A stretch of 35,960 bases of DNA from a virus. Taxonomy: Duplodnaviria > Heunggongvirae > Uroviricota > Caudoviricetes. The notes beneath the pieces were generated by a model. It did no database searches and had not been told where the DNA came from. It saw only the letters and a program-made list of their open reading frames with translations. The stretch's first letter is position 1. Each line of letters starts with the position of its first letter. The stretch is from IMG/VR virus record IMGVR_UViG_2541047842_000004, one strand, 5' to 3'. This document shows positions 1,749 through 16,075 of this stretch, one piece after another. A program made the position numbers and the translations under genes.

Positions 1749-1795
1749 TTTTACACCTCAGTTGGACGATGTTGAAATTTGCTGCTTTGAGGCCA

Positions 1796-2014
1796 TCACA
1801 ATCCCCATTGTTTGTTCTTAAGTTCGATCTCCTCCTGGCAACTTGCACAAGTCCGACAACCCTGAACGACCAGGCGTCTTCGCTCATCTATCGGATCGCC
1901 ACACTCACAACAATGAGTGGCAGATACAGTCTGGTAGTTCAGACGACGCATTTTTATTGCTGTATTGCGCTGTAATTCTTCGATTTCTGATGCTGAATCA
2001 ATGATGTCTGCCAT
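1796..2014 (-). CDS. TraR/DksA-family C4 zinc-finger protein
   Basis: 72-aa ORF with CxxC...CxxC spacing (CCECGDPI ... CRTCASC), characteristic of the phage/plasmid TraR-DksA zinc-finger family. Confidence 0.7.
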   Translation of the reverse strand: MADIIDSASEIEELQRNTAIKMRRLNYQTVSATHCCECGDPIDERRRLVVQGCRTCASCQEEIELKNKQWGL

Positions 2015-2065
2015 CTTCCATTAATCCCTGAATTGTTGGTTAATACGCTTGAGGGTGAATGCGAA

Positions 2066-2091
2066 TAATAAAAAAGGAGCCTGTAGCTCCC
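2066..2091 (-). terminator. Putative rho-independent terminator (minus strand) between early-left genes
   Basis: Minus-strand reading gives hairpin GGAGC-tacag-GCTCC followed by a TTTTTTT run. Confidence 0.35.
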
Positions 2092-2112
2092 TGATGATTT
2101 TGCTTTTCATGT

Positions 2113-2412
2113 TCATCGCTCCTTAAAGACGCCGTTTAACATGCCGATCGCCAGGCTTAAATGAGTCGGTGTGAATCCCATCAGCGTTACCGTTTCGCGG
2201 TGCTTCTTCAGTACGCTACGGCAAATGTCATCGACGTTTTTATCCGGAAACTGCTGTCTGGCTTTTTTGATTTCAGAGTTAGCTTGACGGGCAATGCTGC
2301 GAAGGGCGTTTTTCTGCTGAGGTGTCACTGAACAAGCCCCATGCCGGAAAGCATAAGCACACAGAATATGAAGCCCGCCGCCAGAAAAATGCATTCTGTT
2401 GTTGTCATGCAA
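2113..2412 (-). CDS. Hypothetical protein (non-lambda, occupies the lambda orf61 position)
   Basis: 99-aa ORF whose start overlaps the stop of the upstream orf63-like gene by 8 nt (translational coupling); no family recognised. Confidence 0.5.
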   Translation of the reverse strand: MHDNNRMHFSGGGLHILCAYAFRHGACSVTPQQKNALRSIARQANSEIKKARQQFPDKNVDDICRSVLKKHRETVTLMGFTPTHLSLAIGMLNGVFKER

Positions 2413-2596
2413 GCTCTCTCTCGTTTGCCTCTGCTTTCGCCGCCATCATTTCCAGCTTTTGTGAAAGGGATGCGGCTAACGTATGAAATTCTTCGTCTGT
2501 TTCTGCTGGTATTGGCACAAACCTGACTCCAATTTGAGCAAGGCTATGTGCCATCTCAATGCTCGTTCTTAACTCAACAGGAGATGCTTTGTGCAT
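2405..2596 (-). CDS. Lambda orf63-like small protein
   Basis: 63-aa ORF at the position collinear with lambda orf63 relative to exo; sequence matches my recollection of lambda orf63. Confidence 0.6.
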   Translation of the reverse strand: MHKASPVELRTSIEMAHSLAQIGVRFVPIPAETDEEFHTLAASLSQKLEMMAAKAEANERELA

Positions 2597-2751
2597 ACAG
2601 CCCCTCGTTTATTATTTATCTCCTCAGCCAGCCGCTGGGCTTTCAGTGGATTTTGGATAACAGAAAGGCCGGGAAATACCCAGCCTCGCTTTGTAACGGA
2701 GTAGACGAAAGTGATCGCGCCTACCCGGATATTATCGTGAGGATGCGTCAT
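2569..2751 (-). CDS. Lambda orf60a-like small protein
   Basis: ORF immediately upstream of exo, collinear with lambda orf60a; start taken at the internal Met (MTHPHD...). Confidence 0.55.
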
Positions 2752-3428
2752 CGCCATTGCTCCCCAAATACAAAACCAATTTCAGCCAGTGCCTCGTCCA
2801 TTTTTTCGATGAACTCCGGCACCATCTCGTCAAAACTCGCCATGTACTTTTCATCCCGCTCAACCACGACATAATGCAGTCCTTCACGCTTCATACGCGG
2901 GTCATAGTTGGCAAAGTACCAGGCATCTTTTCGTGTCACCCACATGCTGTACTGCACCTGGGCCATGTAAGCCGACTTTATGGCCTCGAAACCACCGAGC
3001 CGGAACTTCATGAAATCCCGGGAGGTAAACGGGCATTTCAGCTCAAGGCCATTGCCGTCACTGCATAAACCATCGGGAGAGCAGGCGGTGCGCATACTTT
3101 CGTCGCGATAGATGATCGGGGATTCAGTAACATTCACGCCGGAAGTGAATTCAAACAGAGTTCTGGCGTCGTTCTCGTACTGTTTTCCCCAGGCCAGCGC
3201 CTTAGCATTAACTTCCGGAGCCACACCGGTGCAAACCTCAGCCAGCAGGGTGTGGAAGTAGGACATTTTCATGTCAGGCCACTTCTTTCCTGAGCGGGGC
3301 TTTGCTATCACGTTGTGAACTTGTGAAGCGGTGATGACGCCGAGCCGTAATTTGTGCCACGCATCATCTCCCTGCTCGATAGCTCTCACGTCGATCCCGG
3401 TACGCTGCAGGATAATGTCCGGTGTCAT
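2748..3428 (-). CDS. exo: Lambda exonuclease (Red alpha)
   Basis: 226-aa product [30 protein letters not shown]... is near-identical to lambda Exo as I recall it; 4-nt overlap with bet. Confidence 0.97.
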
Positions 3429-4210
3429 GCTGCCACCTTCTGTTCAGTGGCTTTTTGTTTCAGGAATCCAAGAGCTTTCACTGCTTCGTCCTGTGTCAGT
3501 TCTGACGATGCACGAATGTCGCGGCGAAATATCTGGGAACAGAGCGGCAATAAGTCGTCATCCCATGTTTTATCCAGGGCGATCAGCAGAGTGTTAATCT
3601 CCTGCATGGTTTCATCGTTAACCGGAGTGATGTCGCGTTCCGGCTGACGTTCTGCAGTGTATGCGGTATTTTCGACAATGCGCTCGGCTTCATCCTTGTC
3701 ATAGATACCAGCAAATCCGAAGGCGAGACGGGCACACTGAATCATGGCTTTATGCCGTAACATCCGTTTGGGATGCGACTGCCACGGCCCCGTGATTTCT
3801 CTGCCTTCGCGAGTTTTGAATGGTTCGCGGCGGCATTCATCCATCCATTCGGTAACGCAGATCGGATGATTACGGTCCTTGCGGTAAATCCGGCATGTAC
3901 AGGATTCATTGTCCTGCTCAAAGTCCATGCCATCAAACTGCTGGTTTTCATTGATGATGCGGGACCAGCCATCAACGCCCACCACCGGAACGATGCCGTT
4001 CTGCTTATCAGGGAAGGCGTAAATTTCTTTCGTCCACGGATTAAGGCCGTACTGGTTGGCGACGATCAACAATGCGATGAACTGCGCATCGCTGGCATCA
4101 CCTTTAAATGCCGTCTGGCGAAGAGTGGTGATCAGTTCCTGTGGGTCGACAGAATCCATGCCGACACGTTCAGCCAGCTTCCCTGCCAGCGTTGCGAGTG
4201 CTGTACTCAT
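3425..4210 (-). CDS. bet: Single-strand annealing protein Bet (Red beta)
   Basis: 261-aa product [37 protein letters not shown]... matches lambda Bet. Confidence 0.97.
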
Positions 4211-4215
4211 CCGTT

Positions 4216-4632
4216 TTATACCTCTGAATCAATATCAACCTGGTGGTGAGCAATGGTTTCAACCATGTACCGGATGTGTTCTGCCATGCGCTCCTGAAAC
4301 TCAACATCGTCATCAAACGCACGGGTAATGGCTTTTTTGCTGGCCCCGTGGCGTTGCAAATGATCGATGCATAGCGATTCAAACAGGTGCTGGGGCAGGC
4401 CTTTTTCCATGTCGTCTGCCAGTTCTGCCTCTTTCTCTTCACGGGCGATCTGCTGGTAGTGACGCGCCCAGCTCTGAGCCTCAAGACGATCCTGAATGTA
4501 ATAAGCGTTCATGGCTGAACTCCTGAAATAGCTGTGAAAATATCGCCCGCGAAATGCCGGGCTGATTAGGAAAACAGGAAAGGGGGTTAGTGAATGCTTT
4601 TGCTTGATCTCAGTTTCAGTATTAATATCCAT
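4216..4632 (-). CDS. gam: Gam, RecBCD inhibitor
   Basis: 138-aa product [61 protein letters not shown]... matches lambda GamL. Confidence 0.95.
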
Positions 4633-4730
4633 TTTTTATAAGCGTCGACGGCCTCACGAAACATCTTTTCATCGCCAATAAAAGTGGCGATAGTGAATTT
4701 AGTCTGGATAGCCATAAGTGTTTGATCCAT
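4587..4730 (-). CDS. kil: Kil (FtsZ-inhibiting host-killing protein)
   Basis: C-terminal 47 aa of the 89-aa track ORF ([47 protein letters not shown]) matches lambda Kil; overlaps the gam start and the cIII end as in lambda. Confidence 0.85.
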
Positions 4731-4863
4731 TTTTTGGGACTCCTGGCTGATTAAGTATGTCGATAAGGCGTTTCCATCCGTCACGTAATTTACGGGTGAT
4801 TCGTTCAAGTAAAGATTCGGAAGGGCAGCCAGCAACAGGCCACCCTGCAATGGCATATTGCAT
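4699..4863 (-). CDS. cIII: CIII (FtsH protease inhibitor, stabilises CII)
   Basis: Hand translation of the minus strand from ATG at 4863 gives [54 protein letters not shown] (54 aa), which is lambda cIII; below the 60-aa cutoff of the ORF track. Confidence 0.85.
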   Translation of the reverse strand: MQYAIAGWPVAGCPSESLLERITRKLRDGWKRLIDILNQPGVPKNGSNTYGYPD

Positions 4864-4935
4864 GGTGTGCTCCTTATTTATACATAACGAAAAACGCCTC
4901 GAGTGAAGCGTTATTGGTATGCGGTAACGCCGCGC

Positions 4936-5304
4936 TCAGGCGGCTTTGATAGTCATATCATCTGAATCAAATATTCCTGATGTATCGATATCGGTAATTC
5001 TTATTCCTTCGCTACCATCCATTGGAGGCCATCCTTCCTGACCATTTCCATCATTCCAGTCGAACTCACACACAACACCATATGCATTTAAGTCGCTTGA
5101 AATTGCTATAAGCAGAGCATGTTGCGCCAGCATGATTAATACAGCATTTAATACAGAGCCGTGTTTATTGAGTCGGTATTCAGAGTCTGACCAGAAATTA
5201 TTAATCTGGTGAAGTTTTTCCTCTGTCATTACGTCATGGTCGATTTCAATTTCTATTGATGCTTTCCAGTCGTAATCAATGATGTATTTTTTGATGTTTG
5301 ACAT
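4936..5304 (-). CDS. ea10: Ea10 (lambda early protein)
   Basis: 122-aa product MSNIKKYIIDYDWKASIEIEIDHDVMTEEKLHQINNFWSD... matches lambda Ea10; same spacing to cIII as in lambda. Confidence 0.8.
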   Translation of the reverse strand: MSNIKKYIIDYDWKASIEIEIDHDVMTEEKLHQINNFWSDSEYRLNKHGSVLNAVLIMLAQHALLIAISSDLNAYGVVCEFDWNDGNGQEGWPPMDGSEGIRITDIDTSGIFDSDDMTIKAA

Positions 5305-5321
5305 CTATTCATATCCTCACA

Positions 5322-5350
5322 GATAAAAAATCGCCCTCACATTGGAGGGC
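5322..5350 (-). terminator. Putative rho-independent terminator in the leftward operon (tL2-like position)
   Basis: Minus-strand hairpin GCCCTC-caatgt-GAGGGC followed by a TTTTTT run, just upstream of ea10. Confidence 0.4.
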
Positions 5351-5500
5351 AAAGAAGATTTCCAATAATCAGAACAAGTCGGCTCCTGTTTAGTTACGAG
5401 CGACATTGCTCAGTGTATTCACTCGTTGGAATGAATACACAGTGCAGTGTTTATTAGTATGCCTGTCTTTTAACCACATCAGGCTCGGTGGTTCTCGTGT

Positions 5501-5548
5501 ACCCCTACAGCGAGAAATCGGATAAACTCTATTCACCCCTACAGAGAG
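5501..5548. repeat. Two direct copies of ACCCCTACAG(C/A)GAG, 34 bp apart, directly upstream of sieB
   Basis: acccctacagcgag at 5501-5514 and acccctacagagag at 5535-5548, read directly from the sequence. Confidence 0.5.
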
Positions 5549-5564
5549 CAAAAGAGAAACGCCG

Positions 5565-7271
<1,707 letters not shown>

Positions 7272-7275
7272 TTAG

Positions 7276-7345
7276 GTTTGCTGGGAAGAAAGACAGTCTT
7301 ATGGATGAACTTATCGCTCAGGATAAGCATGGCAAAAACAAGTAA
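7276..7345 (+). pseudogene. sieB: Displaced 3' remnant of sieB downstream of IS5
   Basis: Removing the IS and one TTAG copy restores a continuous sieB frame ending ...YIRFAGKKDSLMDELIAQDKHGKNK with stop at 7343-7345. Confidence 0.6.
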
Positions 7346-7361
7346 TTAGCAAATGAATTTA

Positions 7362-7670
7362 TCATCTCGCCGTCAGTTGTTTTGATTTCCGGTAGCCTGC
7401 CGCGTAAATAGCTACGTTTGGCAGGCAAACACTTCCACTGCATTCATCTACTTTCTTGCAGCGAAGGCTTCCGAGTGATATTGCTTTTTCAGAAAGGCTT
7501 AACCGCTTTCTCGGGTCTTCCTGAACAGGTTCCTCACTGTCTGTGCCGAAGATCGAATCGATGATGTTGCAGATGGAATCACGCTCGATGGCCAGCTTTC
7601 TGCGCCGCTCATGACGGCGAGTTTTGGCATTTCCTGCAAATGTTGATTTTCCGTACACGATTACCGTCAT
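7362..7670 (-). CDS. N: Antitermination protein N homologue (P22 gp24-type)
   Basis: 102-aa product from ATG at 7670: MTVIVYGKSTFAGNAKTRRHERRRKLAIERD..., with an arginine-rich N-terminal motif; resembles P22 gene 24 protein as I recall it, not lambda N; sits just downstream of nutL. Confidence 0.8.
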   Translation of the reverse strand: MTVIVYGKSTFAGNAKTRRHERRRKLAIERDSICNIIDSIFGTDSEEPVQEDPRKRLSLSEKAISLGSLRCKKVDECSGSVCLPNVAIYAAGYRKSKQLTAR

Positions 7671-7788
7671 GATGTTTTCCTCATGTGAAATGGCTTTGGT
7701 GGTGATGCGCCAGATGCTGATCTTCTGGTTGCTGTCGTTACTGCTGCAATTCACATCACCCCAAACCCATCTCGTTTGGTATCTGTTC

Positions 7789-7823
7789 GCGCTTTGTCAG
7801 CGCATCATCGAAGTTAAAGAGCC
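7789..7823 (-). promoter_or_regulatory. nutL (boxA-like plus boxB hairpin)
   Basis: Minus strand reads ggctctttaa cttcgatgat GCGCTGACAAAGCGC: a boxA-like element followed by a GCGC/tgacaaa/GCGC hairpin, the P22-type boxB as I recall it. Confidence 0.6.
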
Positions 7824-7870
7824 TGCCAATCTGTTCCGTTTGGCTGCCAGCGTCCTGCTGATGGCGATTA

Positions 7871-7931
7871 TAATGAACCAATAGTTCGATATTATCAAGA
7901 ACTATAAGTACGAATTGTTTGTGGTTCATTA
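7871..7931. promoter_or_regulatory. Nested inverted repeats in the presumed pL/OL region
   Basis: taatgaacca (7871-7880) pairs perfectly with tggttcatta (7922-7931); inside, atagttc (7881-7887) pairs with gaactat (7899-7905); an AGTACGA heptamer at 7907-7913 is shared with the OR region. Confidence 0.3.
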
Positions 7932-8080
7932 ACTTAATGAGATATGTTTTTGATATGTAAAGGAATTTATTTTTGTAAAGATTGAAGATTGGTCAGTAGG
8001 AGAGAAAGAATTGTTTGCTGGCGTGTTAGTTCGTGGGTTAGCACATGTGCGGATGTTAAATAAGGTAGACGATCGTGAGG

Positions 8081-8106
8081 AAAAGAAAAACCGGCGCTGA
8101 GGCCGG
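8081..8106 (-). terminator. Putative rho-independent terminator ending the cI-orf299 transcription unit
   Basis: Minus strand: hairpin CCGGC-ctcagc-GCCGG followed by TTTTTCTTTT, 7 nt downstream of the orf299 stop. Confidence 0.45.
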
Positions 8107-8112
8107 GTATAA

Positions 8113-9012
8113 TTATTTGATTATTTCTTTTATAAAGACTTCTTTCGGTTGGTATTTTTTATCTGATGATTTGAGCTGGTACGTTATTGTTATATCAGCA
8201 CGTACAGAAAATTTACCTGCAAAATCTGATGGGTTTACGTTGGGGCCAAGAACCATATTTACTCTTCGATCTATTAATCCAGGGATAACAGCAGCCCAAC
8301 CTTTCTCTGGATTGTCGAGGTCTAATGCACGGATTTCAACATCAACATCAAAATGATCCTGAGTATATGACTCTGGTGTGAAGACAACTTCAGTTGGGGC
8401 TTTTTTAATGGTTTCAGCGGGAATGGTCACTGTACCACCCCCTGTACCTATGACCATCGTAGATCCTTCGTCTGCCCTAGCTGGGGCAAGCGTCTTAATG
8501 GAACTTTTGGCAAGAGTCTTCTTATTGGTTACCGTGCTTTCTATGATTGCTTGAAGACGGTCAGGTGAAATATTAGCCTCACCGGCACCAATATTGATGA
8601 TTGTATTGTTATTTGCTTCAAAGTGGGAGGTGTTGCTTGGAGCCATAGCCTTAGTTGCTAGAACTAAGCCATATCCAACCAGACCAATAACAACAGCACC
8701 AACGAGAGCGTTTCTCATTTTCCCATTTCCGATCTTTGCATGAGCGCCAGCAAGAAACTTGTCCATTTCTTCTTGGCTACCAAAGAGGAGTTTAATAACA
8801 ATATCTTCATAAAGGCTTCCTGCTTCTAATCGCGCAACATGCACCGATATATCAAGGATATTAGCCCCTGTCAGTTCCTGCAAAACACCTTCTGATTGTT
8901 TTGCGATGGCCTCCCACCCTTGAAGGGAGGTAATCACATCTTTGATGCTTACAGGTTCTTTAGTTGAATAATATATGTTTTCGGTAAAGGTTAAAGATAA
9001 TTCTTGGGACAT
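8113..9012 (-). CDS. Uncharacterised 299-aa predicted single-pass membrane protein in the rexAB slot downstream of cI (candidate exclusion/defence gene)
   Basis: Long ORF with GAGG Shine-Dalgarno about 6 nt upstream of ATG 9012; one strongly hydrophobic segment near residues 100-124 (ALVGAVVIGLVGYGLVLATKAMA); coding region visibly AT-rich compared with flanking cI and structural genes; followed by a terminator; no match to any protein I can recall. Confidence 0.75.
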   Translation of the reverse strand: MSQELSLTFTENIYYSTKEPVSIKDVITSLQGWEAIAKQSEGVLQELTGANILDISVHVARLEAGSLYEDIVIKLLFGSQEEMDKFLAGAHAKIGNGKMRNALVGAVVIGLVGYGLVLATKAMAPSNTSHFEANNNTIINIGAGEANISPDRLQAIIESTVTNKKTLAKSSIKTLAPARADEGSTMVIGTGGGTVTIPAETIKKAPTEVVFTPESYTQDHFDVDVEIRALDLDNPEKGWAAVIPGLIDRRVNMVLGPNVNPSDFAGKFSVRADITITYQLKSSDKKYQPKEVFIKEIIK

Positions 9013-9141
9013 CCGAGCCCTCGCTGTTTCTTTCGATTTGCTGTGTTAAGCTAATATTTTAATATCCATGTTTCTGTTTGCTTGCAGTGTGTTTCTCACC
9101 ACCATCCAAACGTACTGGTTACTAGCTATGTGATGATGAAG

Positions 9142-9849
9142 TCATGAACTTTTCAGCCATTCCCTGGCCTCGATGTCATCTAGGTGGCGAGATTGCTTCA
9201 GAATACCAGCTACATACTCCACCTTTGCTACTTGATGATAAGGCAACGTTATTGGCCTGTGGTCTTGGTTGATGCTTGTAAATTGGTATTCTCCGTCTCT
9301 GTCATAGCCAAGAACCTTGATCATGTTGTGCCCTTCAATGGTTCTGACAAACACCTCATCACCTGGGAATACTTTGGTGTTAGGCTCAATGAGTACATAT
9401 TCTCCTGATTTTATTCTGGGCCACATGCTGTCTCCTTTTACACGAAGACCAAAGGCATCTGGATCATCGCTATAAATCTTGAGCCACCCATCGCGCTCTT
9501 CGGTCATCTCGATGGCACCATCAACACCAAGAATTGCCTCACCAACCACGCGCACTAACCCTTTTTTTAATTTGCCAACAATTGAAAAAGTATCTTCATC
9601 ATTCGCTCCATTTAACGAAGTGCCGTGCTGAAGCCAAACAACATCAACGTTTAGAAATTTCGCAAGCGCATTCATTTTTTCCTGGCGTGGTAAAGACTCA
9701 GCATTAAACCATTTGCTAACGCCTTTGGACGAAAGAGAAAGGGCACGGGCTATGGCCATTCCCCTACCATGTTCATCAAGACCAGCTTCTTTACAGGCTT
9801 GCGCTAGCCGCTGGGCGAATTCTTTGCGCACTTTTTCATTCTGAACCAT
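9142..9849 (-). CDS. cI: CI-type prophage repressor (N-terminal HTH plus C-terminal S24 LexA-like autopeptidase domain)
   Basis: 235-aa protein; C-terminal domain contains the GDSM serine motif and a downstream lysine (MIKVL) typical of LexA/CI autocleavage domains; divergently oriented to cro; sequence differs from lambda CI. Confidence 0.9.
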   Translation of the reverse strand: MVQNEKVRKEFAQRLAQACKEAGLDEHGRGMAIARALSLSSKGVSKWFNAESLPRQEKMNALAKFLNVDVVWLQHGTSLNGANDEDTFSIVGKLKKGLVRVVGEAILGVDGAIEMTEERDGWLKIYSDDPDAFGLRVKGDSMWPRIKSGEYVLIEPNTKVFPGDEVFVRTIEGHNMIKVLGYDRDGEYQFTSINQDHRPITLPYHQVAKVEYVAGILKQSRHLDDIEAREWLKSS

Positions 9850-9927
9850 GAGTACGATACTAAAGCACTTGCAAAAACTTTCAGTTCAACCATAATGCGT
9901 ACTGAAAGTACGAAAAAGGACATTCCT
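9850..9927. promoter_or_regulatory. OR operator / pRM-pR divergent promoter region between cI and cro
   Basis: 78-bp cI-cro spacer containing AGTACGA heptamers (9851-9857, 9907-9913) and an inverted repeat actttcagt (9877-9885) / actgaaagt (9901-9909). Confidence 0.5.
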
Positions 9928-10155
9928 ATGCAAAATCTTGATGAGCCGATTAAAGGTGTCGGCATCCCTGAAGTTGCGAAGGCTTGTGGAGTTAGCGAAA
10001 GGGCTGTCTATAAGTGGCTCAAAAACGGCTTCCTCCCTAAGACTGAGTTTTTTGGGAAAACGAAATACGCATCAAAAATCGAAGAGATTTCTGGTGGCAA
10101 ATATCAAGCAAGCGAAATGCTTGAAATAAGCAAAAAGAACCTTCTGGCAGCATAA
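9928..10155 (+). CDS. cro: Cro-like repressor (HTH)
   Basis: 75-aa product from ATG 9928 with AAGGA Shine-Dalgarno 7 nt upstream; HTH-like segment GIPEVAKACGVSERAVYKWLKNG. The longer track ORF from 9895 would start inside the operator region, so the shorter start is preferred. Confidence 0.8.
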   Translation: MQNLDEPIKGVGIPEVAKACGVSERAVYKWLKNGFLPKTEFFGKTKYASKIEEISGGKYQASEMLEISKKNLLAA

Positions 10156-10162
10156 GTAACAC

Positions 10163-10197
10163 CGCTCTTTATCAATCTGCACCGCCGACAACGCGGT
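10163..10197 (+). promoter_or_regulatory. nutR (boxA plus boxB hairpin)
   Basis: cgctcttta (10163-10171) followed by hairpin ACCGC-cgacaa-CGCGGT (10181-10197), just downstream of cro. Confidence 0.6.
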
Positions 10198-10261
10198 AAC
10201 TAATTAAGAACTCATCGAAAGATGCGTATTAGTGATTATTTACCTATGGAAATAGTAAGAA

Positions 10262-10561
10262 ATGGAACAAACAAATTACAGCAAACTATCACAGCGCGAC
10301 GTTGATCGCGCAGAAACAGATTTACTTATCAACCTGTCAACGCTTACTCAGCGCGGTCTGGCAAAGATGATTGGCTGTCATGAATCGAAGATAAGCAGAA
10401 CAGACTGGAGGTTTATAGCTTCGGTCTTGTGTGCTTTTGGCATGGCATCAGACATCAGTCCGATTAGCAGAGCTTTTAAGTATGCGCTTGATGAAATCAC
10501 CAATAAAAAACGCCCGGTGTGCAAGACCGAGCGTTCTGAACAAATCCAGATGGAGTTCTGA
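10262..10561 (+). CDS. cII: CII-like transcriptional activator (chimeric: divergent N-terminus, lambda-identical C-terminus)
   Basis: 99-aa protein ending ...TNKKRPVCKTERSEQIQMEF, matching the lambda CII C-terminus (…TNKKRPAATERSEQIQMEF); same 33-bp spacing to O as in lambda. Confidence 0.85.
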   Translation: MEQTNYSKLSQRDVDRAETDLLINLSTLTQRGLAKMIGCHESKISRTDWRFIASVLCAFGMASDISPISRAFKYALDEITNKKRPVCKTERSEQIQMEF

Positions 10562-10593
10562 GGTCATTACTGGATCTATCAACAGGAGTCATT

Positions 10594-11493
10594 ATGACAA
10601 ATACAGCAAAAATACTCAACTTCGGCAGAGGTAACTTTGCCGGACAGGAGCGTAATGTGGCAGATCTCGATGATGGTTACGCCAGACTATCAAATATGCT
10701 GCTTGAGGCTTATTCGGGCGCAGATCTGACCAAGCGACAGTTTAAAGTGCTGCTTGCCATTCTGCGTAAAACCTATGGGTGGAATAAACCAATGGACAGA
10801 ATCACCGATTCTCAACTTAGCGAGATTACAAAGTTACCTGTCAAACGGTGCAATGAAGCCAAGTTAGAACTCGTCAGAATGAATATTATCAAGCAGCAAG
10901 GCGGCATGTTTGGACCAAACAAAAACATCTCAGAATGGTGCATCCCTCAAAACGAGGGAAAATCCCCTAAAACGAGGGATAAAACATCCCTCAAATTGGG
11001 GGATTGCTATCCCTCAAAACAGGGGGACACAAAAGACACTATTACAAAAGAAAAAAGAAAAGATTATTCGTCCGAGAATTCTGGCGAATCCTCTGACCAG
11101 CCAGAAAACGATCTTTCTGTGGTTAAACCGGATGCTGCAATTCAGAGCGGCAGTAAGTGGGGAACAGCAGAAGACCTGACCGCCGCAGAGTGGATGTTTG
11201 ACATGGTGAAGACCATCGCGCCATCAGCCAGAAAACCGAATTTTGCTGGGTGGGCTAACGATATCCGCCTGATGCGTGAACGTGACGGACGTAACCACCG
11301 CGATATGTGTGTGCTTTTCCGCTGGGCCTGCCAGGACAACTTCTGGTCCGGTAACGTGCTGAGTCCGGCCAAACTCCGCGACAAGTGGACCCAGCTCGAA
11401 ATCAACCGTAACAAGCAACAGGCTGGCGTGACAGCCGGAAAACCAAAACTCGACCTGACAAACACTGACTGGATTTACGGGGTGGATCTATGA
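10594..11493 (+). CDS. O: Replication initiator protein O
   Basis: 299-aa product MTNTAKILNFGRGNFAGQERNVADLDDGYARLSNMLLEAY... matches lambda O; contains the ori iterons internally. Confidence 0.97.
   Translation: MTNTAKILNFGRGNFAGQERNVADLDDGYARLSNMLLEAYSGADLTKRQFKVLLAILRKTYGWNKPMDRITDSQLSEITKLPVKRCNEAKLELVRMNIIKQQGGMFGPNKNISEWCIPQNEGKSPKTRDKTSLKLGDCYPSKQGDTKDTITKEKRKDYSSENSGESSDQPENDLSVVKPDAAIQSGSKWGTAEDLTAAEWMFDMVKTIAPSARKPNFAGWANDIRLMRERDGRNHRDMCVLFRWACQDNFWSGNVLSPAKLRDKWTQLEINRNKQQAGVTAGKPKLDLTNTDWIYGVDL
10941..11065 (+). repeat. ori-lambda: four ~19-bp iterons followed by an AT-rich unwinding region, inside gene O
   Basis: Iterons atccctcaaaacgaggga (10942), atcccctaaaacgagggat (10962), atccctcaaattgggggat (10986), atccctcaaaacaggggga (11009), then an A-rich tract (…caaaagaaaaaagaaaagattatt). 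Confidence 0.85.
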
Positions 11494-12191
11494 AAAACAT
11501 CGCCGCACAGATGGTTAACTTTGACCGTGAGCAGATGCGTCGGATCGCCAACAACATGCCGGAACAGTACGACGAAAAGCCACAGGTACAGCAGGTAGCG
11601 CAGATCATCAACGGTGTGTTCAGCCAGTTACTGGCAACTTTCCCGGCGAGCCTGGCTAACCGTGACCAGAACGAACTGAACGAAATCCGCCGCCAGTGGG
11701 TTCTGGCTTTCCGGGAAAACGGGATCACCACAATGGAACAGGTTAACGCAGGAATGCGCGTAGCCCGTCGGCAGAATCGACCATTTCTGCCATCACCCGG
11801 GCAGTTTGTTGCATGGTGCCGGGAAGAAGCATCCGTTATCGCCGGACTGCCAAACGTCAGCGAGCTGGTTGATATGGTTTACGAGTATTGCCGGAAGCGA
11901 GGCCTGTATCCGGATGCGGAGTCTTATCCGTGGAAATCAAATGCGCACTACTGGCTGGTTACCAACCTGTATCAGAACATGCGGGCCAATGCGCTTACTG
12001 ATGCGGAATTACGCCGTAAGGCCGCAGATGAGCTTGTCCATATGACTGCGAGAATTAACCGTGGTGAGGCGATCCCTGAACCAGTAAAACAACTTCCTGT
12101 CATGGGCGGTAGACCTCTAAATCGTGCACAGGCTCTGGCGAAGATCGCAGAAATCAAAGCTAAGTTCGGACTGAAAGGAGCAAGTGTATGA
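11490..12191 (+). CDS. P: Replication protein P (DnaB helicase loader)
   Basis: 233-aa product MKNIAAQMVNFDREQMRRIANNMPEQYDEKPQVQQVAQIINGVFSQLLATFP... matches lambda P; 4-nt overlap with O. Confidence 0.97.
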   Translation: MKNIAAQMVNFDREQMRRIANNMPEQYDEKPQVQQVAQIINGVFSQLLATFPASLANRDQNELNEIRRQWVLAFRENGITTMEQVNAGMRVARRQNRPFLPSPGQFVAWCREEASVIAGLPNVSELVDMVYEYCRKRGLYPDAESYPWKSNAHYWLVTNLYQNMRANALTDAELRRKAADELVHMTARINRGEAIPEPVKQLPVMGGRPLNRAQALAKIAEIKAKFGLKGASV

Positions 12192-12478
12192 CGGGCAAAG
12201 AGGCAATTATTCATTACCTGGGGACGCATAATAGCTTCTGTGCGCCGGACGTTGCCGCGCTAACAGGCGCAACAGTAACCAGCATAAATCAGGCCGCGGC
12301 TAAAATGGCACGGGCAGGTCTTCTGGTTATCGAAGGTAAGGTCTGGCGAACGGTGTATTACCGGTTTGCTACCAGGGAAGAACGGGAAGGAAAGATGAGC
12401 ACGAACCTGATTTTCAAGGAGTGTCGCCAGAGTGCCGCGATGAAACGGGTATTGGCGGTATATGGAGTTAAAAGATGA
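12188..12478 (+). CDS. ren: Ren (Rex exclusion escape protein)
   Basis: 96-aa product MTGKEAIIHYLGTHNSFCAPDVAALTGATVTSINQAAAKMARAGLLV... matches lambda Ren. Confidence 0.9.
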   Translation: MTGKEAIIHYLGTHNSFCAPDVAALTGATVTSINQAAAKMARAGLLVIEGKVWRTVYYRFATREEREGKMSTNLIFKECRQSAAMKRVLAVYGVKR

Positions 12479-12551
12479 CCATCTACATTACTGAGCTAAT
12501 AACAGGCCTGCTGGTAATCGCAGGCCTTTTTATTTGGGGGAGAGGGAAGTC

Positions 12552-12992
12552 ATGAAAAAACTAACCTTTGAAATTCGATCTCCAGCACATCAGCAAAACG
12601 CTATTCACGCAGTACAGCAAATCCTTCCAGACCCAACCAAACCAATCGTAGTAACCATTCAGGAACGCAACCGCAGCTTAGACCAAAACAGGAAGCTATG
12701 GGCCTGCTTAGGTGACGTCTCTCGTCAGGTTGAATGGCATGGTCGCTGGCTGGATGCAGAAAGCTGGAAGTGTGTGTTTACCGCAGCATTAAAGCAGCAG
12801 GATGTTGTTCCTAACCTTGCCGGGAATGGCTTTGTGGTAATAGGCCAGTCAACCAGCAGGATGCGTGTAGGCGAATTTGCGGAGCTATTAGAGCTTATAC
12901 AGGCATTCGGTACAGAGCGTGGCGTTAAGTGGTCAGACGAAGCGAGACTGGCTCTGGAGTGGAAAGCGAGATGGGGAGATCGGGCTGCATGA
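12552..12992 (+). CDS. ninB: NinB (Orf recombination protein)
   Basis: 146-aa product from MKKLTFEIRSPAHQQNAIHAVQQILPDPTKP..., matching lambda NinB; the longer track ORF starts upstream. Confidence 0.9.
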   Translation: MKKLTFEIRSPAHQQNAIHAVQQILPDPTKPIVVTIQERNRSLDQNRKLWACLGDVSRQVEWHGRWLDAESWKCVFTAALKQQDVVPNLAGNGFVVIGQSTSRMRVGEFAELLELIQAFGTERGVKWSDEARLALEWKARWGDRAA

Positions 12993-13516
12993 CTATCAAA
13001 TCAAATACGCCAGCACACGACAAGGACTGCTGGCAAACGCCGCTTTGGCTTTTTGATGCACTGGATATTGAGTTTGGATTCTGGCTGGATTCGGCAGCGA
13101 GCGACAAAAATGCTCTGTGTGCTCACTGGCTAACTGAGGCCGACGACGCGCTCAATTCTGAGTGGGTAAGCCACGGTGCAATCTGGAATAACCCACCGTA
13201 CAGCAATATCAGGCCGTGGGTGGAAAAAGCCGCTGAGCAGTGCATACAACAGCGACAGACGGTAGTTATGCTTGTGCCAGAGGATATGTCAGTCGGATGG
13301 TTCAGCAAGGCTCTGGAGAGTGTCGACGAAGTTCGCATTATCACTGATGGACGGATTAATTTTATCGAACCATCGACAGGGCTGGAGAAGAAGGGAAACA
13401 GCAAAGGCTCCATGCTGCTGATTTGGCGACCGTTCATCAGTCCTCGACGGATGTTTACTACCGTATCCAAAGCGGCATTGATGGCGATCGGGCAGGGCGT
13501 CAGGAGGGCGGCATGA
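12989..13516 (+). CDS. Phage DNA N6-adenine methyltransferase (Dam-like orphan MTase)
   Basis: 175-aa product from [30 protein letters not shown]... with a catalytic (D/N)PPY-type motif (WNNPPYSN); occupies the lambda ninC position. Confidence 0.8.
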
Positions 13517-13689
13517 GGCGACAGCGACGAAGTTTCACCGACATCATCTGCGAAAACTGCAAATACCTTCCAACGAAACGCTCCAGAAATAAACGCAAGC
13601 CAATCCCAAAAGAATCTGACGTAAAAACCTTCAATTACACAGCTCACCTGTGGGATATCCGGTGGCTAAGATATCGTGCGAGGAAATGA
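13513..13689 (+). CDS. ninE: NinE-like protein
   Basis: 58-aa product [58 protein letters not shown] resembles lambda NinE; ATGA overlap with the preceding gene. Confidence 0.7.
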
Positions 13690-14033
13690 CAATGGATTAT
13701 TCACAGTTAAGTGATTTTGAAATTAACAGAATGGTAGGAGACATAATTTTTAAAGGCCTTTGGGCAAGTAAACCGGAAACATCAGGGAATAACACCAACA
13801 AATGGTATTACGGAAATGCTGATACAACTTTTGAGCCATTAAATCATTTGCCTGACTACTGCAATGATCCGAGCGCTTCATGGCCGATTATTGAGAAATA
13901 CAGGATTTCTATCTTAGACCAGTTAACTGAATGGTGTGTGGATGCAAAAGGCGTAAGCCCAATATTTGATACCAGACCTCTCCGCGCCGCCATTATTGTC
14001 TTTCTCCTGATGCAGGAGGCCAATAATGCTTAG
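13686..14033 (+). CDS. Hypothetical nin-region protein (possibly NinX-like)
   Basis: About 116 aa from [26 protein letters not shown]...; ATGA-type overlap with ninE; family not recognised with confidence. Confidence 0.55.
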
Positions 14034-14243
14034 CCCATCTCAATCCCTTCAATACCTGAAAGGAAGCATAGAGCGGGCTTCAATGTGCACAGAGTGGATT
14101 CTATCTAGGTTTAGCGCATACAGAAGATTGCCGGTAAAGGGCATGCCAAGCAAGTCGATGCTGCATATGCAAAAGAATGCGCGCGGGAAGGTATGGCGAG
14201 AACGCAGGTTATCTGGCTGAAAGAGGGGGTAATTAAGGCGTGA
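14026..14243 (+). pseudogene. Probable recombination scar: NinF-like 5' fragment joined out of frame to a ybcO-like (DUF1364) 3' fragment
   Basis: Frame from 14026 begins [19 protein letters not shown] (NinF-like N-terminus as recalled) then diverges; a different frame ends ...[31 protein letters not shown], resembling the YbcO C-terminus, with stop at 14241-14243 overlapping the rusA start. Confidence 0.4.
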
Positions 14244-14602
14244 ATACTTACCACATCACACTACCCTGGCCTCCGAGCAATAATCGCTATTATCGCCATA
14301 ATCGCGGGCGCACGCACGTCAGCGCAGAGGGGCAGGCATACCGCGATAACGTCGCCCGAATCATTAAAAACGCAATGCTGGATATCGGCCTGGCGATGCC
14401 TGTGAAAATCCGCATTGAGTGCCACATGCCGGATCGCCGTCGCCGTGACCTGGATAATCTGCAAAAAGCCGCTTTTGACGCACTCACCAAAGCAGGTTTC
14501 TGGCTGGATGATGCTCAGGTCGTTGATTACCGCGTTGTGAAGATGCCTGTTACCAAAGGTGGGAGGCTGGAATTGACCATCACCGAAATGGGGAATGAAT
14601 GA
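14240..14602 (+). CDS. rusA: Holliday junction resolvase RusA
   Basis: 120-aa product (GTG start) [47 protein letters not shown]... matches E. coli DLP12 RusA. Confidence 0.9.
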
Positions 14603-14739
14603 TGTTTGAGTTTTATATGGCAGAACGTCTTCGCCACCGCTGGGTGCGTCTGCGCTTATATCGTTTCCCCGGTTCTGTTTTGACCGATTACCGAATACTG
14701 AAGAATTACGCCAAAACACTGACAGGAGCAGGAGTATGA
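14599..14739 (+). CDS. ylcG: YlcG-like small protein
   Basis: Hand-translated 46-aa [49 protein letters not shown], overlapping the rusA stop; resembles DLP12 YlcG as recalled. Confidence 0.6.
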
Positions 14740-14824
14740 AGTCAGAGATAACAATCAACTAATACTGTTTTGCTGATTTTTGCTTGTAATTGGCGTTCTG
14801 GTCTGATTTTTGTGGAGTAAGTTG

Positions 14825-15202
14825 ATGCGTGATATTCAGATGGTTCTTGAGCGTTGGGGAGCGTGGGCGGCTAATAATCATGAAGATGTGACCTGGTCGT
14901 CCATTGCCGCCGGTTTTAAGGGATTAATTCCTTCAAAAGTAAAATCTCGCCCGCAATGTTGTGACGATGACGCGATGATCATTTGCGGGTGCATGGCCCG
15001 TCTGAAAAATAACAACAGCGATTTGCATGATTTGTTAGTGGACTATTATGTCGGCGGCATGACTTTTATGGCGCTTGCGCGTAAGCATGGTAGATCTGAT
15101 TGTTGGATTGGCAGGATGCTCCAAAAAGCTGAGGGCGTAGTGGAGGGCATGCTGATGGTGTTGGATCTCAGATTGGAGATGGATGCTGATTGTTTGAGAT
15201 AA
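14825..15202 (+). CDS. Q: Late-gene antiterminator Q (phage 82 / DLP12 QuuD type)
   Basis: 125-aa product from ATG 14825: [60 protein letters not shown]...; resembles QuuD/Q82 as recalled; followed by a terminator. Confidence 0.85.
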
Positions 15203-15300
15203 TTAAAGGAAAAGTTGCTGTCTGGTTATCATTAGACTAATGTTTCAAATGTTAGAATCGCAACGTAGTTATGATCATATAACAGCTTGTTCCCTGATTT

Positions 15301-15330
15301 AGCCAGCCTCCCCAAAGGCTGGTTTTTTTT
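15301..15330 (+). terminator. tR'-like rho-independent terminator downstream of Q
   Basis: Hairpin AGCCAGCC-tccccaaa-GGCTGG followed by an 8-T run; in the position of lambdoid tR', where Q acts. Confidence 0.6.
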
Positions 15331-15358
15331 CTAATAAGTATCAATCCGGTTAGGTATT

Positions 15359-15883
15359 TTATTGTTTGACCCATAATAGTTCATTGACATTGAATCCCAA
15401 TTTTTGAGCAGTACGCACATAGTCTGCTTTTACATTATCTGGAATAGTTGGAGTCCGTGCCAGAATCCATAGGTATTCTCTGTTCGGACCACTGACAAGA
15501 GCATACTTATACTCATCATCCAGTTTGATTACATTATAGCCACCATAGAAGGGGCCAAAAAACGAAACCTTCAACGCTGCAGTTGTATTATCTCCTGTAA
15601 AGTATGCTTTACCTTCGCTCTCGCTCCATTTGTTTTTCGTTGGGTCATATCCACGATTAAGTACACTAATCCCTCCGTCGTTCCGTTTCCCATAAGTGGC
15701 GCTGACCTGTTCCAGACCACGTTCAAATCGGTTCTCAAGCCGAGCTATTTCATACCATTTTCCGAGGTAGCGGTTGGTGTCAAAATTTGTAATCGGCTGC
15801 ACACCTTTAGGTGGTGTCGGGGCCTTACATGCTATCAGAGTGAAAGAGAGTGCAATGCCAGTCAACACAGGCCATAACTTCAT
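15359..15883 (-). CDS. blc: Bacterial lipocalin (Blc-like outer-membrane lipoprotein)
   Basis: 174-aa product with a lipoprotein signal peptide and lipobox (LIAC) and lipocalin motifs (GKWYEIARLENRFERG, YFTGDNTTAALKVSFFGPFYGGYNVI); resembles E. coli Blc. Confidence 0.85.
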   Translation of the reverse strand: MKLWPVLTGIALSFTLIACKAPTPPKGVQPITNFDTNRYLGKWYEIARLENRFERGLEQVSATYGKRNDGGISVLNRGYDPTKNKWSESEGKAYFTGDNTTAALKVSFFGPFYGGYNVIKLDDEYKYALVSGPNREYLWILARTPTIPDNVKADYVRTAQKLGFNVNELLWVKQ

Positions 15884-16075
15884 AATATATCCTGTACTTT
15901 TGATAGTTGAGAGTAAGTATTAAAGATAGATGATTACTACCGATCACCTAAAGAACTTTCCTACTATATTAGGAATAGTCCATAACAAAAAAATTGTCAG
16001 TGATGACGGCAGAAAGGCAGTTTAGGTCGTGTACTACACTGTTAACCTGTTAATGAATTAGTCAAGGGGTAGGCA

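What the first reader, a model, noticed from the sequence alone, without database searches (positions are those of the whole stretch)
7362..10561. Hybrid immunity region: P22-type N and nut sites grafted between lambda-identical Red and replication modules
Seen in sequence: N resembles P22 gp24 rather than lambda N, and both nut sites carry the hairpins I associate with P22 (nutL boxB GCGCTGACAAAGCGC; nutR boxB ACCGCCGACAACGCGGT); cI and cro are not lambda's. Yet sieB immediately left of N and the 3' end of cII plus O, P and ren immediately right appear lambda-identical. The cII product is chimeric, with a divergent N-terminus and a lambda C-terminus (…TNKKRP..TERSEQIQMEF), placing a recombination junction inside the gene. 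Inference: this is a natural analogue of imm-hybrid phages and marks precise mosaic breakpoints.
Basis: partly seen in the sequence, partly recalled or inferred. Interest (0 to 1): 0.45.

Follow-up and report, generated by a model that had tools for sequence, protein, structure and literature searches.

The report
Mosaic lambdoid prophage immunity region
This is the early control region of a common, already sequenced E. coli lambda-like prophage (phage 1H12 type), assembled from 933W-type repressor genes, a P22-type antiterminator N with matching nut sites, and lambda-type replication genes: an ordinary example of phage mosaicism.

Summary
The core observation holds. N (7362-7670, minus strand) is P22-gp24-like (70.6% aa). 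Both boxB hairpins match P22's annotated nut sites exactly. cI and cro are not lambda's. cII is chimeric, and lambda-type sequence (98.7% nt) begins at 10497, at the oop terminator.

- cI (98.7% aa), Cro (100%), the three OR operators (exact) and the first 80 residues of CII are 933W-type, not unknown and not P22.
- sieB is P22-type (84% aa; 20% to lambda SieB) and is split by an IS5 element (6077-7271).
- The P22-like block runs from the pL transcript start to the sieB promoter (7865 to 5460), so the left lambda junction is near 5455-5545, not 7350.
- The Red module (97.5%) and replication module (98.7%) are lambda-like, not identical. Red matches 933W equally well.

Apart from the IS5, the whole window is 99.97-100% identical to Escherichia phage 1H12. 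The 3.2-kb region is 100% identical in 11 phage records and at least 99% identical in 146 E. coli genome records.

Among 69 scorable loci with a 933W-identical Cro, N type, nutL type and nutR type always match. The P22-type set is the commoner partner.

A 299-aa cargo gene in the rex position has no known function.

Verdict: real, ordinary, already known.

The parts
1819..5455 (-). Early-left (Red: exo, bet, gam; kil, cIII, ea10) module, context only. It is lambda-like and equally 933W-like.
   Evidence: blastn gives 97.5% to lambda over 1819-5455 and 97.6% to 933W over 1920-5445. Relative to lambda, ral and orf28 are missing: lambda 34056-34395 has no counterpart between window 5455 and 5460.
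5460..5544 (+). sieB promoter stretch, conserved in both lambda and P22. This is where lambda similarity ends on the left.
   Evidence: 94% identical to lambda 34396-34480, and also the start of the P22-colinear block.
5565..6076 (+). sieB, 5' part (P22-type), cut by IS5.
   Evidence: Pfam PF14163 SieB. The reconstructed 193-aa SieB is 83.9% identical to P22 SieB and 20.2% to lambda SieB.
6077..7271 (+). IS5 insertion (1195 bp) with TTAG target duplication at 6073-6076 and 7272-7275.
   Evidence: Absent from phage 1H12, whose sequence is otherwise continuous across the site. Both terminal inverted repeats were located. The exact junction is not present in any of 5,426 complete E. coli genomes.
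7276..7345 (+). sieB, 3' part.
   Evidence: Restores the 193-aa reading frame when the IS5 is removed.
7362..7670 (-). Antiterminator gene N (102 aa), itself mosaic. Residues 1-73 are the P22-type ARM and NusA-binding part; residues 80-102 match the 933W/HK97/P22-type C-terminus.
   Evidence: 70.6% aa to P22 gp24, with residues 1-31 identical except V5T. PF25694 at 139.7 bits. 7453-7979 is 93% nt to Stx2_EH1965 and 7362-7432 is 93% nt to 933W. The EH1965 N carries a different, lambda/21-like C-terminus.
7789..7822 (-). nutL: boxA GCTCTTTAA (7814-7822), 10-nt spacer, boxB GCGCTGACAAAGCGC (7789-7803).
   Evidence: 49 of 51 nt identical to P22 nutL. boxB is identical to P22's and also to 933W's nutL boxB. 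The hairpin is predicted.
7870..7912 (-). pL (-35 at 7893-7898, -10 at 7870-7875) with two 933W-type OL operator-like sites (7874-7888 and 7898-7912).
   Evidence: Promoter scan. 7850-7899 is 92% identical to 933W (alignment). Operator-like sites differ from 933W OR sites at 3-4 positions. P22 similarity stops at 7865, about the transcript start.
8086..8106 (-). Terminator closing the cI-cargo (pRM) transcript; equivalent to lambda tImm and 933W tM.
   Evidence: Terminator scan and fold. 8070-8108 is 95% identical to lambda 35787-35825, just downstream of rexB. It aligns with the annotated 933W tM.
8113..9012 (-). orf299: cargo gene in the rexAB position. Predicted membrane-spanning protein of unknown function.
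9142..9849 (-). cI repressor, 933W-type (HTH plus S24 peptidase domains).
   Evidence: 232 of 235 aa identical to 933W cI. Pfam HTH_3 and Peptidase_S24.
9842..9912 (+). OR3 (9842-9856), OR2 (9874-9888), OR1 (9898-9912) and pR (9869-9896).
   Evidence: Exact matches to the three OR operators annotated in 933W. Promoter scan.
9928..10155 (+). cro, 933W-type.
   Evidence: 75 of 75 aa identical to 933W Cro.
10163..10258 (+). nutR patch: boxA CGCTCTTTA (10163-10171), boxB ACCGCCGACAACGCGGT (10181-10197), and the rest of the ~92-nt segment (10167-10258) that differs from 933W.
   Evidence: The three-way alignment shows 933W diverging only across this patch, while Stx2_EH1965 differs from the window at a single base there. 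35 of 37 nt are identical to P22 nutR.
10262..10561 (+). cII, chimeric: residues 1-80 are 933W-type (77 of 80), the last 19 residues are lambda-type.
   Evidence: alignments; Pfam Phage_CII.
10497..10537 (-). Right mosaic junction (about 10497-10510) at the oop terminator (stem 10507-10537, T-run to about 10500).
   Evidence: Lambda identity begins at 10497, which is lambda 38592. 933W identity ends at about 10500. Terminator scan and fold, z = -2.5. The oop promoter lies at 10591-10619 (-).
10594..12478 (+). Lambda-type replication module: O (10594-11493, with lambda-pattern ori iterons), P (11490-12191), ren (12188-12478).
   Evidence: O 99.7%, P 99.1% and Ren 99.0% aa identical to lambda. 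Iteron pattern and spacing follow lambda, not the longer 933W array.

Best explanation
The region is the early regulatory (immunity) region of a lambdoid prophage of the Escherichia phage 1H12 type. It is a multi-parent mosaic, not a lambda x P22 graft.

Composition:
1. A 933W-type immunity core: the OL/pL operators, cI, OR1-3, cro, and CII residues 1-80.
2. A P22-class antitermination set that is physically split around that core. On the left is nutL plus the specificity-determining N-terminal ~75 residues of N, continuing into a P22-type sieB. On the right is a ~92-nt nutR patch between cro and cII.
3. A lambda-type oop-O-P-ren replication module, joined inside the 3' end of cII at the oop terminator.
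4. A cargo gene of unknown function (orf299) in the slot that holds rexAB in lambda and stk in 933W. It sits between the 3' flank of cI and a conserved tImm/tM terminator.
5. A secondary IS5 insertion in sieB.

How it works (inferred from the lambda, P22 and 933W paradigms, not tested here):
- The 933W-type repressor holds pL and pR shut and expresses orf299 with cI from pRM.
- After RecA-stimulated self-cleavage of cI through its S24 domain, pL transcribes nutL and N.
- The arginine-rich motif of N binds the GACAA-loop boxB hairpins of the nutL and nutR RNAs. Together with boxA and the Nus factors, it makes RNA polymerase termination-resistant.
- This allows expression of the Red, xis and int genes leftward and cII-O-P-Q rightward.
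- oop RNA, antisense to the lambda-type 3' end of cII, down-regulates cII.
For: - The window is colinear with phage 1H12 and 99.97-100% identical to it, apart from the IS5.
- 1H12-type phages were isolated as plaque-forming temperate coliphages (PMC6969025), so this gene combination is viable.
- 933W-type core: cI 98.7% aa, Cro 100%, OR1-3 exact, and OL/pL (7850-7899) 92% nt identical.
- P22-class set: the N ARM is identical, both boxB hairpins are exact, and boxA has the same spacing. With the IS5 removed, 5460-7865 aligns colinearly to P22 29652-30888, from the sieB promoter to the pL transcript start.
- The lambda junction lies at 10497, at the oop terminator.
- Lambda has 52 nt of oop overlapping cII (PMC5869508). 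The lambda imm21 hybrid changes sequence in the same overlap (PMC3349717).
- N domain swapping at about residue 75, with function retained, is documented for phages L and P22 (PMC8022706).
- Among IMG/VR loci with a 933W-identical Cro, N type, nutL type and nutR type match in 69 of 69 scorable cases. These are spread over many of the 34 cI-cro haplotypes found.
Against: - No functional test was possible.
- The IS5 lies in the pL operon between N and the Red/xis/int genes. It could be polar, so this particular copy may be impaired even though its IS-free twins are viable.
- The direction and order of the recombination events cannot be read from the sequences: either the P22-type or the 933W-type N/nut set could have been the incoming one.
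- The OL operators were identified only by similarity.
Confidence: 0.9

Rival explanations
1. One reading: a two-parent hybrid in which a P22 immunity segment (N, nut sites, repressor genes) was grafted between lambda Red and lambda replication modules, with breakpoints near 7350 and inside cII.
For: N, nutL and nutR are of P22 class. The right breakpoint inside cII is real. The flanks are lambda-like.
Against: - cI, Cro and CII are only 19.8, 29.5 and 20.6% identical to P22 C2, Cro and C1, but 98.7, 100 and 86.9% identical to 933W's.
- sieB is P22-type, and lambda similarity ends at 5455-5544.
- The P22-like DNA is only 72-91% identical to P22.
- Red is as close to 933W as to lambda.
Confidence: 0.04
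2. The mosaic is an assembly chimera or another artefact of the source sequence.
For: None beyond the abrupt identity changes themselves.
Against: The 3.2-kb region is 100% identical in 11 independently deposited phage genomes. It is at least 99% identical in 146 complete E. coli genome records, and 150 of 5,426 genomes cover at least 80% of it. The same junctions recur in IMG/VR contigs.
Confidence: 0.01
3. This copy is a crippled prophage. The IS5 in sieB is polar on the pL operon, so the region is no longer a working regulatory unit, only a remnant that still confers immunity and expresses its cargo gene.
For: The IS5 (6077-7271) lies between N and the ea10-cIII-kil-gam-bet-exo-xis-int genes on the pL transcript. 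The junction is not seen in any of 5,426 complete genomes, so it is a private, probably recent event.
Against: The rest of the prophage in the window has only 6 differences (5 substitutions, 1 indel) from a viable phage over about 34.7 kb. From my own knowledge, not tested here: N-modified polymerase classically reads through polar IS insertions. sieB is dispensable for growth.
Confidence: 0.2
4. The perfect association of N type with nutR type among imm933W phages reflects shared descent and linkage only, not selection for cognate N-nut pairs.
For: The IMG/VR loci are not independent samples; many come from related E. coli lineages. nutL and N are adjacent, so their association is expected from linkage alone.
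Against: - nutR is separated from N by 2.3 kb or more of cI-cro DNA, about 1 kb of which is at least 97% identical between the two classes. That is ample for homologous exchange.
- The cI-cro haplotypes are intermingled between classes. L064 and L077 carry a 933W-like cI haplotype, and L064 also carries the stk cargo, yet both have the full P22-type N/nutL/nutR set.
- Two additional N types each come with their own nutR boxB.
Confidence: 0.25

Closest known systems
Escherichia phage 1H12 (NC_049947, Jouyvirus jv1H12) and its sibling 'Lambda_ev/2E9/4B5/2G7a' isolates
   Same: The whole window from int through tail gene I is colinear and 99.97-100% identical. The 3.2-kb region of the finding is 100% identical.
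   Different: The window carries an IS5 in sieB (6077-7271) that these phages lack. The 1H12 annotation does not label the nut sites, the operators or the mosaic origin of the parts.
Immunity region of Shiga-toxin phage 933W (NC_000924)
   Same: cI 98.7% aa, Cro 100%, OR1-3 exact, OL/pL (7850-7899) 92% nt identical, CII residues 1-80 at 77 of 80. The nutL boxB hairpin and the C-terminal 22 residues of N are the same.
   Different: - The 933W N has a different N-terminal part (30.8% overall).
- Its nutL context differs.
- Its nutR has boxB TCGCTGACAAAGCGA and an extra hairpin between boxA and boxB.
- Its cargo is stk plus three other genes instead of orf299.
- It has no sieB.
- Its cII 3' end and O iteron array differ.
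P22 gene 24 / nutL / nutR antitermination system, and the phage L variant
   Same: The ARM is identical, both boxB hairpins are exact, boxA has the same spacing, and the order sieB-24-nutL-pL is colinear. As in phage L against P22, the C-terminal quarter of N is exchangeable (PMC8022706).
   Different: Only 70.6% aa and about 75% nt identity in N. P22's own immunity genes (c2, cro, c1) and replication genes (18, 12) are absent.
Laboratory imm hybrids of lambda (lambda imm21, lambda immP22, lambda imm933W)
   Same: A lambda-type replication and recombination backbone carries a foreign immunity region. The right crossover lies in the conserved cII/oop overlap, as in lambda imm21 (PMC3349717). 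Lambda hybrids carrying the 933W, 21, 434 or P22 immunity region are in laboratory use (PMC6989128).
   Different: Here the foreign segment is itself composite (a 933W core with a P22-class N/nut set and sieB). The phage is natural and widespread, and its late genes are not lambda's throughout.
Stx2a-converting phages of the Stx2_EH1965 type (LC616032)
   Same: The same pairing of a 933W-type cI/cro/cII with a P22-type N N-terminus, nutL and nutR. 9114-10557 is 97.3% identical and 7453-7979 is 93% identical.
   Different: Their N has a lambda/21-type C-terminus. The cargo and the replication module differ, with divergence starting at the end of cII.

Membership tests
P22-type N / nut antitermination system | N protein of the P22 gp24 family (Pfam PF25694 N_peptide) matched over its full length | tested here: met
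   139.7 bits against a gathering score of 27.9, residues 1-102 on profile positions 1-100. 70.6% aa identical to P22 gp24.
P22-type N / nut antitermination system | Arginine-rich motif GNAKTRRHERRRKLAIERD, the RNA-binding determinant | tested here: met
   Residues 13-31 are identical to P22 gp24 (alignment).
P22-type N / nut antitermination system | boxB hairpins with a GACAA loop downstream of pL (nutL) and downstream of cro (nutR), each preceded by boxA | tested here: met
   Exact matches to the boxB sequences inside P22's annotated nut sites. boxA lies 9-10 nt upstream. Both hairpins are predicted in the minimum-free-energy folds.
P22-type N / nut antitermination system | N-dependent, Nus-dependent read-through of terminators | not testable with these tools
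   Needs a reporter or an in vitro transcription assay.
933W immunity type (imm933W) | Repressor and Cro of 933W specificity | tested here: met
   cI 232 of 235 aa and Cro 75 of 75 aa identical.
933W immunity type (imm933W) | 933W OR1, OR2 and OR3 operator sequences between cI and cro | tested here: met
   All three annotated 15-mers are found exactly, at 9898-9912, 9874-9888 and 9842-9856.
933W immunity type (imm933W) | 933W-type OL operators at pL | tested here: inconclusive
   7850-7899 is 92% identical to 933W, and the alignment stays close up to about 7980. There are two operator-like sites with 3-4 differences from the OR sites. The 933W record does not annotate OL.
933W immunity type (imm933W) | Homoimmunity with 933W in vivo | not testable with these tools
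   Needs plating of lambda imm933W or 933W on a lysogen.
Lambda-type replication module (oop, O/ori-lambda, P, ren) | O, P and Ren proteins of lambda type, and lambda's iteron arrangement inside O | tested here: met
   99.7, 99.1 and 99.0% aa identity. The iteron-like sites match lambda's pattern and spacing. 933W is annotated with six iterons and lambda with four.
Lambda-type replication module (oop, O/ori-lambda, P, ren) | oop promoter and terminator antisense to the 3' end of cII | tested here: met
   Promoter-like site at 10591-10619 (-) and a 12-bp-stem terminator at 10507-10537 (-) followed by a T-run. Fold z-score -2.5.
Escherichia phage 1H12 species (Jouyvirus jv1H12) | Colinear genome with at least 95% nucleotide identity | tested here: met
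   1-6077 is 100% identical, 7272-19561 is 99.97% and 20501-35960 is 99.98%. The part of the phage genome outside the window (tail fibre, sitABCD, att) could not be compared.
   19.8, 29.5 and 20.6% aa identity to P22 C2, Cro and C1.

The most novel reading that the evidence does not exclude
Phages sharing one immunity type (Cro 100% identical to 933W's) carry at least four alternative N/nut sets. Each set is split into a left patch (N N-terminus plus nutL) and a right patch (about 90 nt at nutR), and the patches were never found mixed (0 of 69 loci). This holds even though the P22-type and 933W-type nutL boxB hairpins are the same sequence. If selection rather than descent causes this, N specificity in these phages is set by something other than the boxB hairpin alone. 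Candidates are the nutR stem, the boxA-boxB spacer (which carries an extra hairpin in 933W), or N residues beyond the ARM. Separately, orf299 in the rex slot could be an undescribed exclusion or defence protein.
Probability: 0.3. Interest if true: 0.4.

Novelty: already known. Interest (0 to 1): 0.17.

Why it matters
It matters little as a discovery. The sequence is already in public phage and E. coli genomes, and it illustrates textbook modular evolution of lambdoid phages.

It is useful for annotation:
- It shows that 1H12-type, sitABCD-carrying prophages of commensal and extra-intestinal E. coli have 933W immunity. Whether that makes them immune to superinfecting Stx2 phages of the 933W immunity type was not tested.
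- It places the nut sites, operators and junctions that the deposited records leave unlabelled.
- It gives a clean natural example of a split N/nut specificity set being kept matched across an exchangeable immunity core.
- It flags an uncharacterised cargo gene in a slot that holds exclusion genes in lambda (rexAB) and a kinase gene (stk) in 933W.

Tried and rejected
- Literature: searches for 'Jouyvirus', '1H12', and 933W+P22+nutR+boxB found no analysis of this immunity region. The paper describing these phages does not use the words 'immunity' or 'mosaic'.
- Rfam found only the lambda cIII thermoregulator, outside the region. There are no tRNA genes.
- I considered that cII might not be chimeric because 933W aligns continuously across it. 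I rejected this after the base-level alignment showed 933W diverging over 10500-10556, where lambda matches.
- I considered P22 as the direct donor. I rejected this because identity is only 72-91%, and E. coli phages are much closer.
- The search for the sieB::IS5 junction in complete E. coli genomes found none, so the source strain was not identified.
- My first nutR classification of the IMG/VR loci failed because a synonymous base at the 3' end of cro broke the exact-match anchor. It was redone from tblastn coordinates.

Full report
WHAT THE WINDOW IS

The whole 35,960-bp window is a lambdoid prophage read from the 3' end of int through the early, lysis, head and tail-assembly genes. It is colinear with Escherichia phage 1H12 (NC_049947, genus Jouyvirus) and nearly identical to it:
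- 1-6077 is 100% identical.
- 7272-19561 is 99.97% identical.
- 20501-35960 is 99.98% identical.

The only structural difference is an IS5 element at 6077-7271, with a TTAG target duplication.

The 3.2-kb stretch named in the finding is 100% identical in 11 deposited phage genomes, namely 1H12 and the 'Lambda_ev/2E9/4B5/2G7a' isolates. It is at least 99% identical in 146 complete E. coli genome records, and 150 of 5,426 genomes cover at least 80% of it. These phages were isolated as plaque-forming temperate coliphages from infant faeces (PMC6969025). The gene combination is therefore viable and common.

CHECKING THE OBSERVATION

N is 7362-7670 on the minus strand (102 aa).
- It is 70.6% identical to P22 gp24, 30.8% to 933W N and 17.6% to lambda N.
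- It matches Pfam PF25694 (N_peptide) end to end.
- Its arginine-rich motif GNAKTRRHERRRKLAIERD is identical to P22's.

- nutL boxB is at 7789-7803 (-) and nutR boxB is at 10181-10197 (+). Both are identical to the sequences inside P22's annotated nutL and nutR.
- boxA lies 9-10 nt upstream of each.
- Over the whole nut sites the match to P22 is 49 of 51 nt (nutL) and 35 of 37 nt (nutR). The surrounding DNA is only 72-75% identical.

cI and Cro are indeed unrelated to lambda's (21% and 20% aa). O, P and Ren are 99.0-99.7% identical to lambda's, and lambda similarity runs from 10497 to 12992 at 98.7% nt.

CII is chimeric. Its first 80 residues are of one type and its last 19 are lambda's.

sieB:
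- It is not lambda-like. The reconstructed 193-aa SieB is 83.9% identical to P22 SieB and 20.2% to lambda SieB.
- It is also not intact. The IS5 splits it into 5565-6076 and 7276-7345.
- With the IS5 removed in silico, the window aligns colinearly to P22 from 5460 to 7865 (P22 29652-30888). That span runs from the sieB promoter through sieB, gene 24 and nutL, up to about the pL transcript start.

Left junction:
- Lambda similarity ends at 5455, with a short conserved promoter stretch at 5460-5544.
- The left junction is therefore near 5455-5545, not 7350.
- ral and orf28 of lambda are absent there.

The lambda-like flanks:
- The Red module is 97.5% identical to lambda, and equally 97.6% identical to 933W.
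- 'Lambda-identical' overstates both flanks.

THE IMMUNITY CORE IS 933W'S

- cI is 232 of 235 aa identical to 933W cI, and Cro is 75 of 75.
- The three OR operators annotated in 933W are present exactly.
- The first 50 nt of the pL/OL region (7850-7899) are 92% identical to 933W, and the alignment stays close up to about 7980.
- CII residues 1-80 are 77 of 80 identical.

A base-level three-way alignment shows the window and 933W differing by scattered substitutions from 9114 to about 10500, with one exception. A ~92-nt patch at 10167-10258, between the cro stop and the cII ribosome-binding site, holds nutR. There 933W has a different boxB (TCGCTGACAAAGCGA), a longer spacer and an extra hairpin.

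On the left the same thing happens. 933W matches the last 71 nt of N (7362-7432, 93%) and the pL/OL region, but not the segment from the N N-terminus to nutL.

So, relative to 933W, two separate patches differ, and both are the parts that set N/nut specificity. Stx2a phages of the Stx2_EH1965 type carry the same two patches with the same 933W-type core. In them N has a lambda/21-type C-terminus and the replication module is different.

N is therefore itself mosaic at about residue 73-80. This is the same position at which phage L and P22 gp24 switch from 96% identical to unrelated while remaining functionally interchangeable (PMC8022706).

THE RIGHT JUNCTION

- Lambda-type sequence starts at 10497 (lambda 38592), and 933W-type identity ends at about 10500.
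- On the minus strand this is the distal edge of a strong terminator (stem 10507-10537, T-run to about 10500), fed by a promoter-like site at 10591-10619. Together these are the oop gene.
- In lambda, 52 nt of oop overlap the 3' end of cII (PMC5869508).
- The classical lambda imm21 hybrid changes sequence in this same overlap (PMC3349717).

The 'lambda C-terminus' of CII is thus simply the antisense of oop. It belongs to the replication module. The junction is a recurrent lambdoid linker, not a peculiarity of this phage.

THE CARGO SLOT

Between the 3' flank of cI (933W-like from 9114) and a terminator at 8086-8106 lies orf299 (8113-9012, minus strand). The stretch 8070-8108 around that terminator is 95% identical to lambda's tImm region and aligns with 933W tM. 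This is the slot that holds rexAB in lambda and stk plus three other genes in 933W.

- orf299 has a hydrophobic central helix and no Pfam, NCBIfam or PADLOC family.
- It has 56 unnamed homologue clusters, in Enterobacterales and beyond.
- It also occurs in a primase-bearing island and in a Mu-like prophage.
- A confident AF2 model (mean pLDDT 83) has no informative structural neighbour.
- Its function is unknown. Its position and mobility are those of a lysogen-expressed moron.

DO N AND THE NUT SITES TRAVEL AS A MATCHED SET?

I fetched 80 IMG/VR loci that encode a Cro 100% identical to 933W's. I then classified the N N-terminus, the nutL context and the nutR boxB in each.
- Every scorable locus was concordant.
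- 38 loci, including the window, have the P22-type set, and 31 have the 933W-type set.
- None of the 69 is mixed.
- Two rarer N types each come with their own nutR boxB (TCGCTGAAAAGCGA and CCCGCCGAAATGCGGG).

The roughly 1-kb cI-cro segment has 34 haplotypes. N types are intermingled among them. L064 and L077, for example, have a 933W-like cI haplotype, and L064 also has the stk cargo, yet both carry a complete P22-type set.

The loci are not phylogenetically independent, so this is suggestive rather than a formal test. It is what the textbook requirement for cognate N-nut pairs predicts.

One detail is not obviously explained. The nutL boxB of 933W is the same 15-mer as P22's. If mixed sets are selected against, the discriminating feature must lie elsewhere, in the nutR stem, the spacer architecture or N itself.

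MECHANISM (INFERRED FROM LAMBDA, P22 AND 933W; NOT TESTED)

- The 933W-type repressor shuts pL and pR, and co-expresses orf299 from pRM up to the tImm-like terminator.
- After induction, pL RNA carries nutL and encodes N.
- N binds the GACAA-loop boxB hairpins through its ARM. With boxA and the Nus factors it converts RNA polymerase to a termination-resistant form at both nutL and nutR.
- oop RNA opposes cII.
- The IS5 sits in the pL operon downstream of N. Whether it is polar in this copy is open.

VERDICT

The feature is real. The hairpins, the P22-class N and the chimeric cII are confirmed. The interpretation needs correcting: it is a multi-parent mosaic with a 933W immunity core, the left junction is elsewhere, and sieB is P22-type and disrupted.

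It is an already sequenced, widespread phage type that illustrates known principles, so interest is low. The two loose ends worth a note are the never-mixed N/nut sets despite identical nutL boxB hairpins, and the uncharacterised orf299.

Noticed in passing
window 6077-7271 (TSD 6073-6076 and 7272-7275): IS5 is inserted in sieB, inside the pL operon between N and the Red genes. It is absent from phage 1H12, and this exact junction is not found in any of 5,426 complete E. coli genomes.
   Followed up: yes
window 8113-9012 (-): orf299 is a 299-aa predicted membrane protein in the rexAB/stk cargo slot. It has no family in Pfam, NCBIfam or PADLOC and no informative structural neighbour. Homologues also sit in a primase island (L006) and in a Mu-like prophage (L007, L008).
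   Followed up: partly
window 8070-8108 (-): This 39-nt terminator segment is 95% identical to lambda's tImm region downstream of rexB and aligns with 933W tM. Together with the 3' flank of cI it appears to be a conserved landing pad that brackets exchangeable cargo.
   Followed up: partly
L004 (933W) 4615-4629; window 7789-7803: The 933W nutL boxB is the same 15-mer as the P22 nutL boxB (GCGCTGACAAAGCGC), although the two N proteins are only about 31% identical overall. Their ARMs share the pattern G-N-x-(K/R)-x-R-R-x-E-R.
   Followed up: partly
L021; L041, L052, L061 (IMG/VR loci): Two further N/nutR sets occur behind a 933W-identical Cro. One has N ARM 'GTAASRRRARRANLQ' with nutR boxB TCGCTGAAAAGCGA; the other has N ARM 'DDNARNRRRARRQAQREQ' with nutR boxB CCCGCCGAAATGCGGG.
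   Followed up: partly
L064 (IMG/VR locus): This locus combines the stk cargo typical of 933W with a complete P22-type N/nutL/nutR set on a 933W-like cI haplotype. It looks like a recombinant that kept N and nut matched.
   Followed up: partly
window 5455-5460: Relative to lambda, about 340 bp holding ral and orf28 (lambda 34056-34395) are absent between ea10 and the sieB promoter.
   Followed up: no
window 4818-4876 (-): Rfam RF01804, the lambda cIII thermoregulator element, at 88.5 bits.
   Followed up: no
window 7624-7884 (+): This ORF is annotated in 1H12-type records as a hypothetical protein (FIG00644188). It lies antisense over nutL and the N start and is probably not a gene.
   Followed up: no
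window 12929-13516 (+); L009 21757-25206: A DNA methyltransferase gene follows ninB where lambda has ninC. Phage 1H12 also carries the sitABCD manganese/iron transporter as cargo, outside the window. sitABCD is reported on 70% of such phages (PMC6969025).
   Followed up: no
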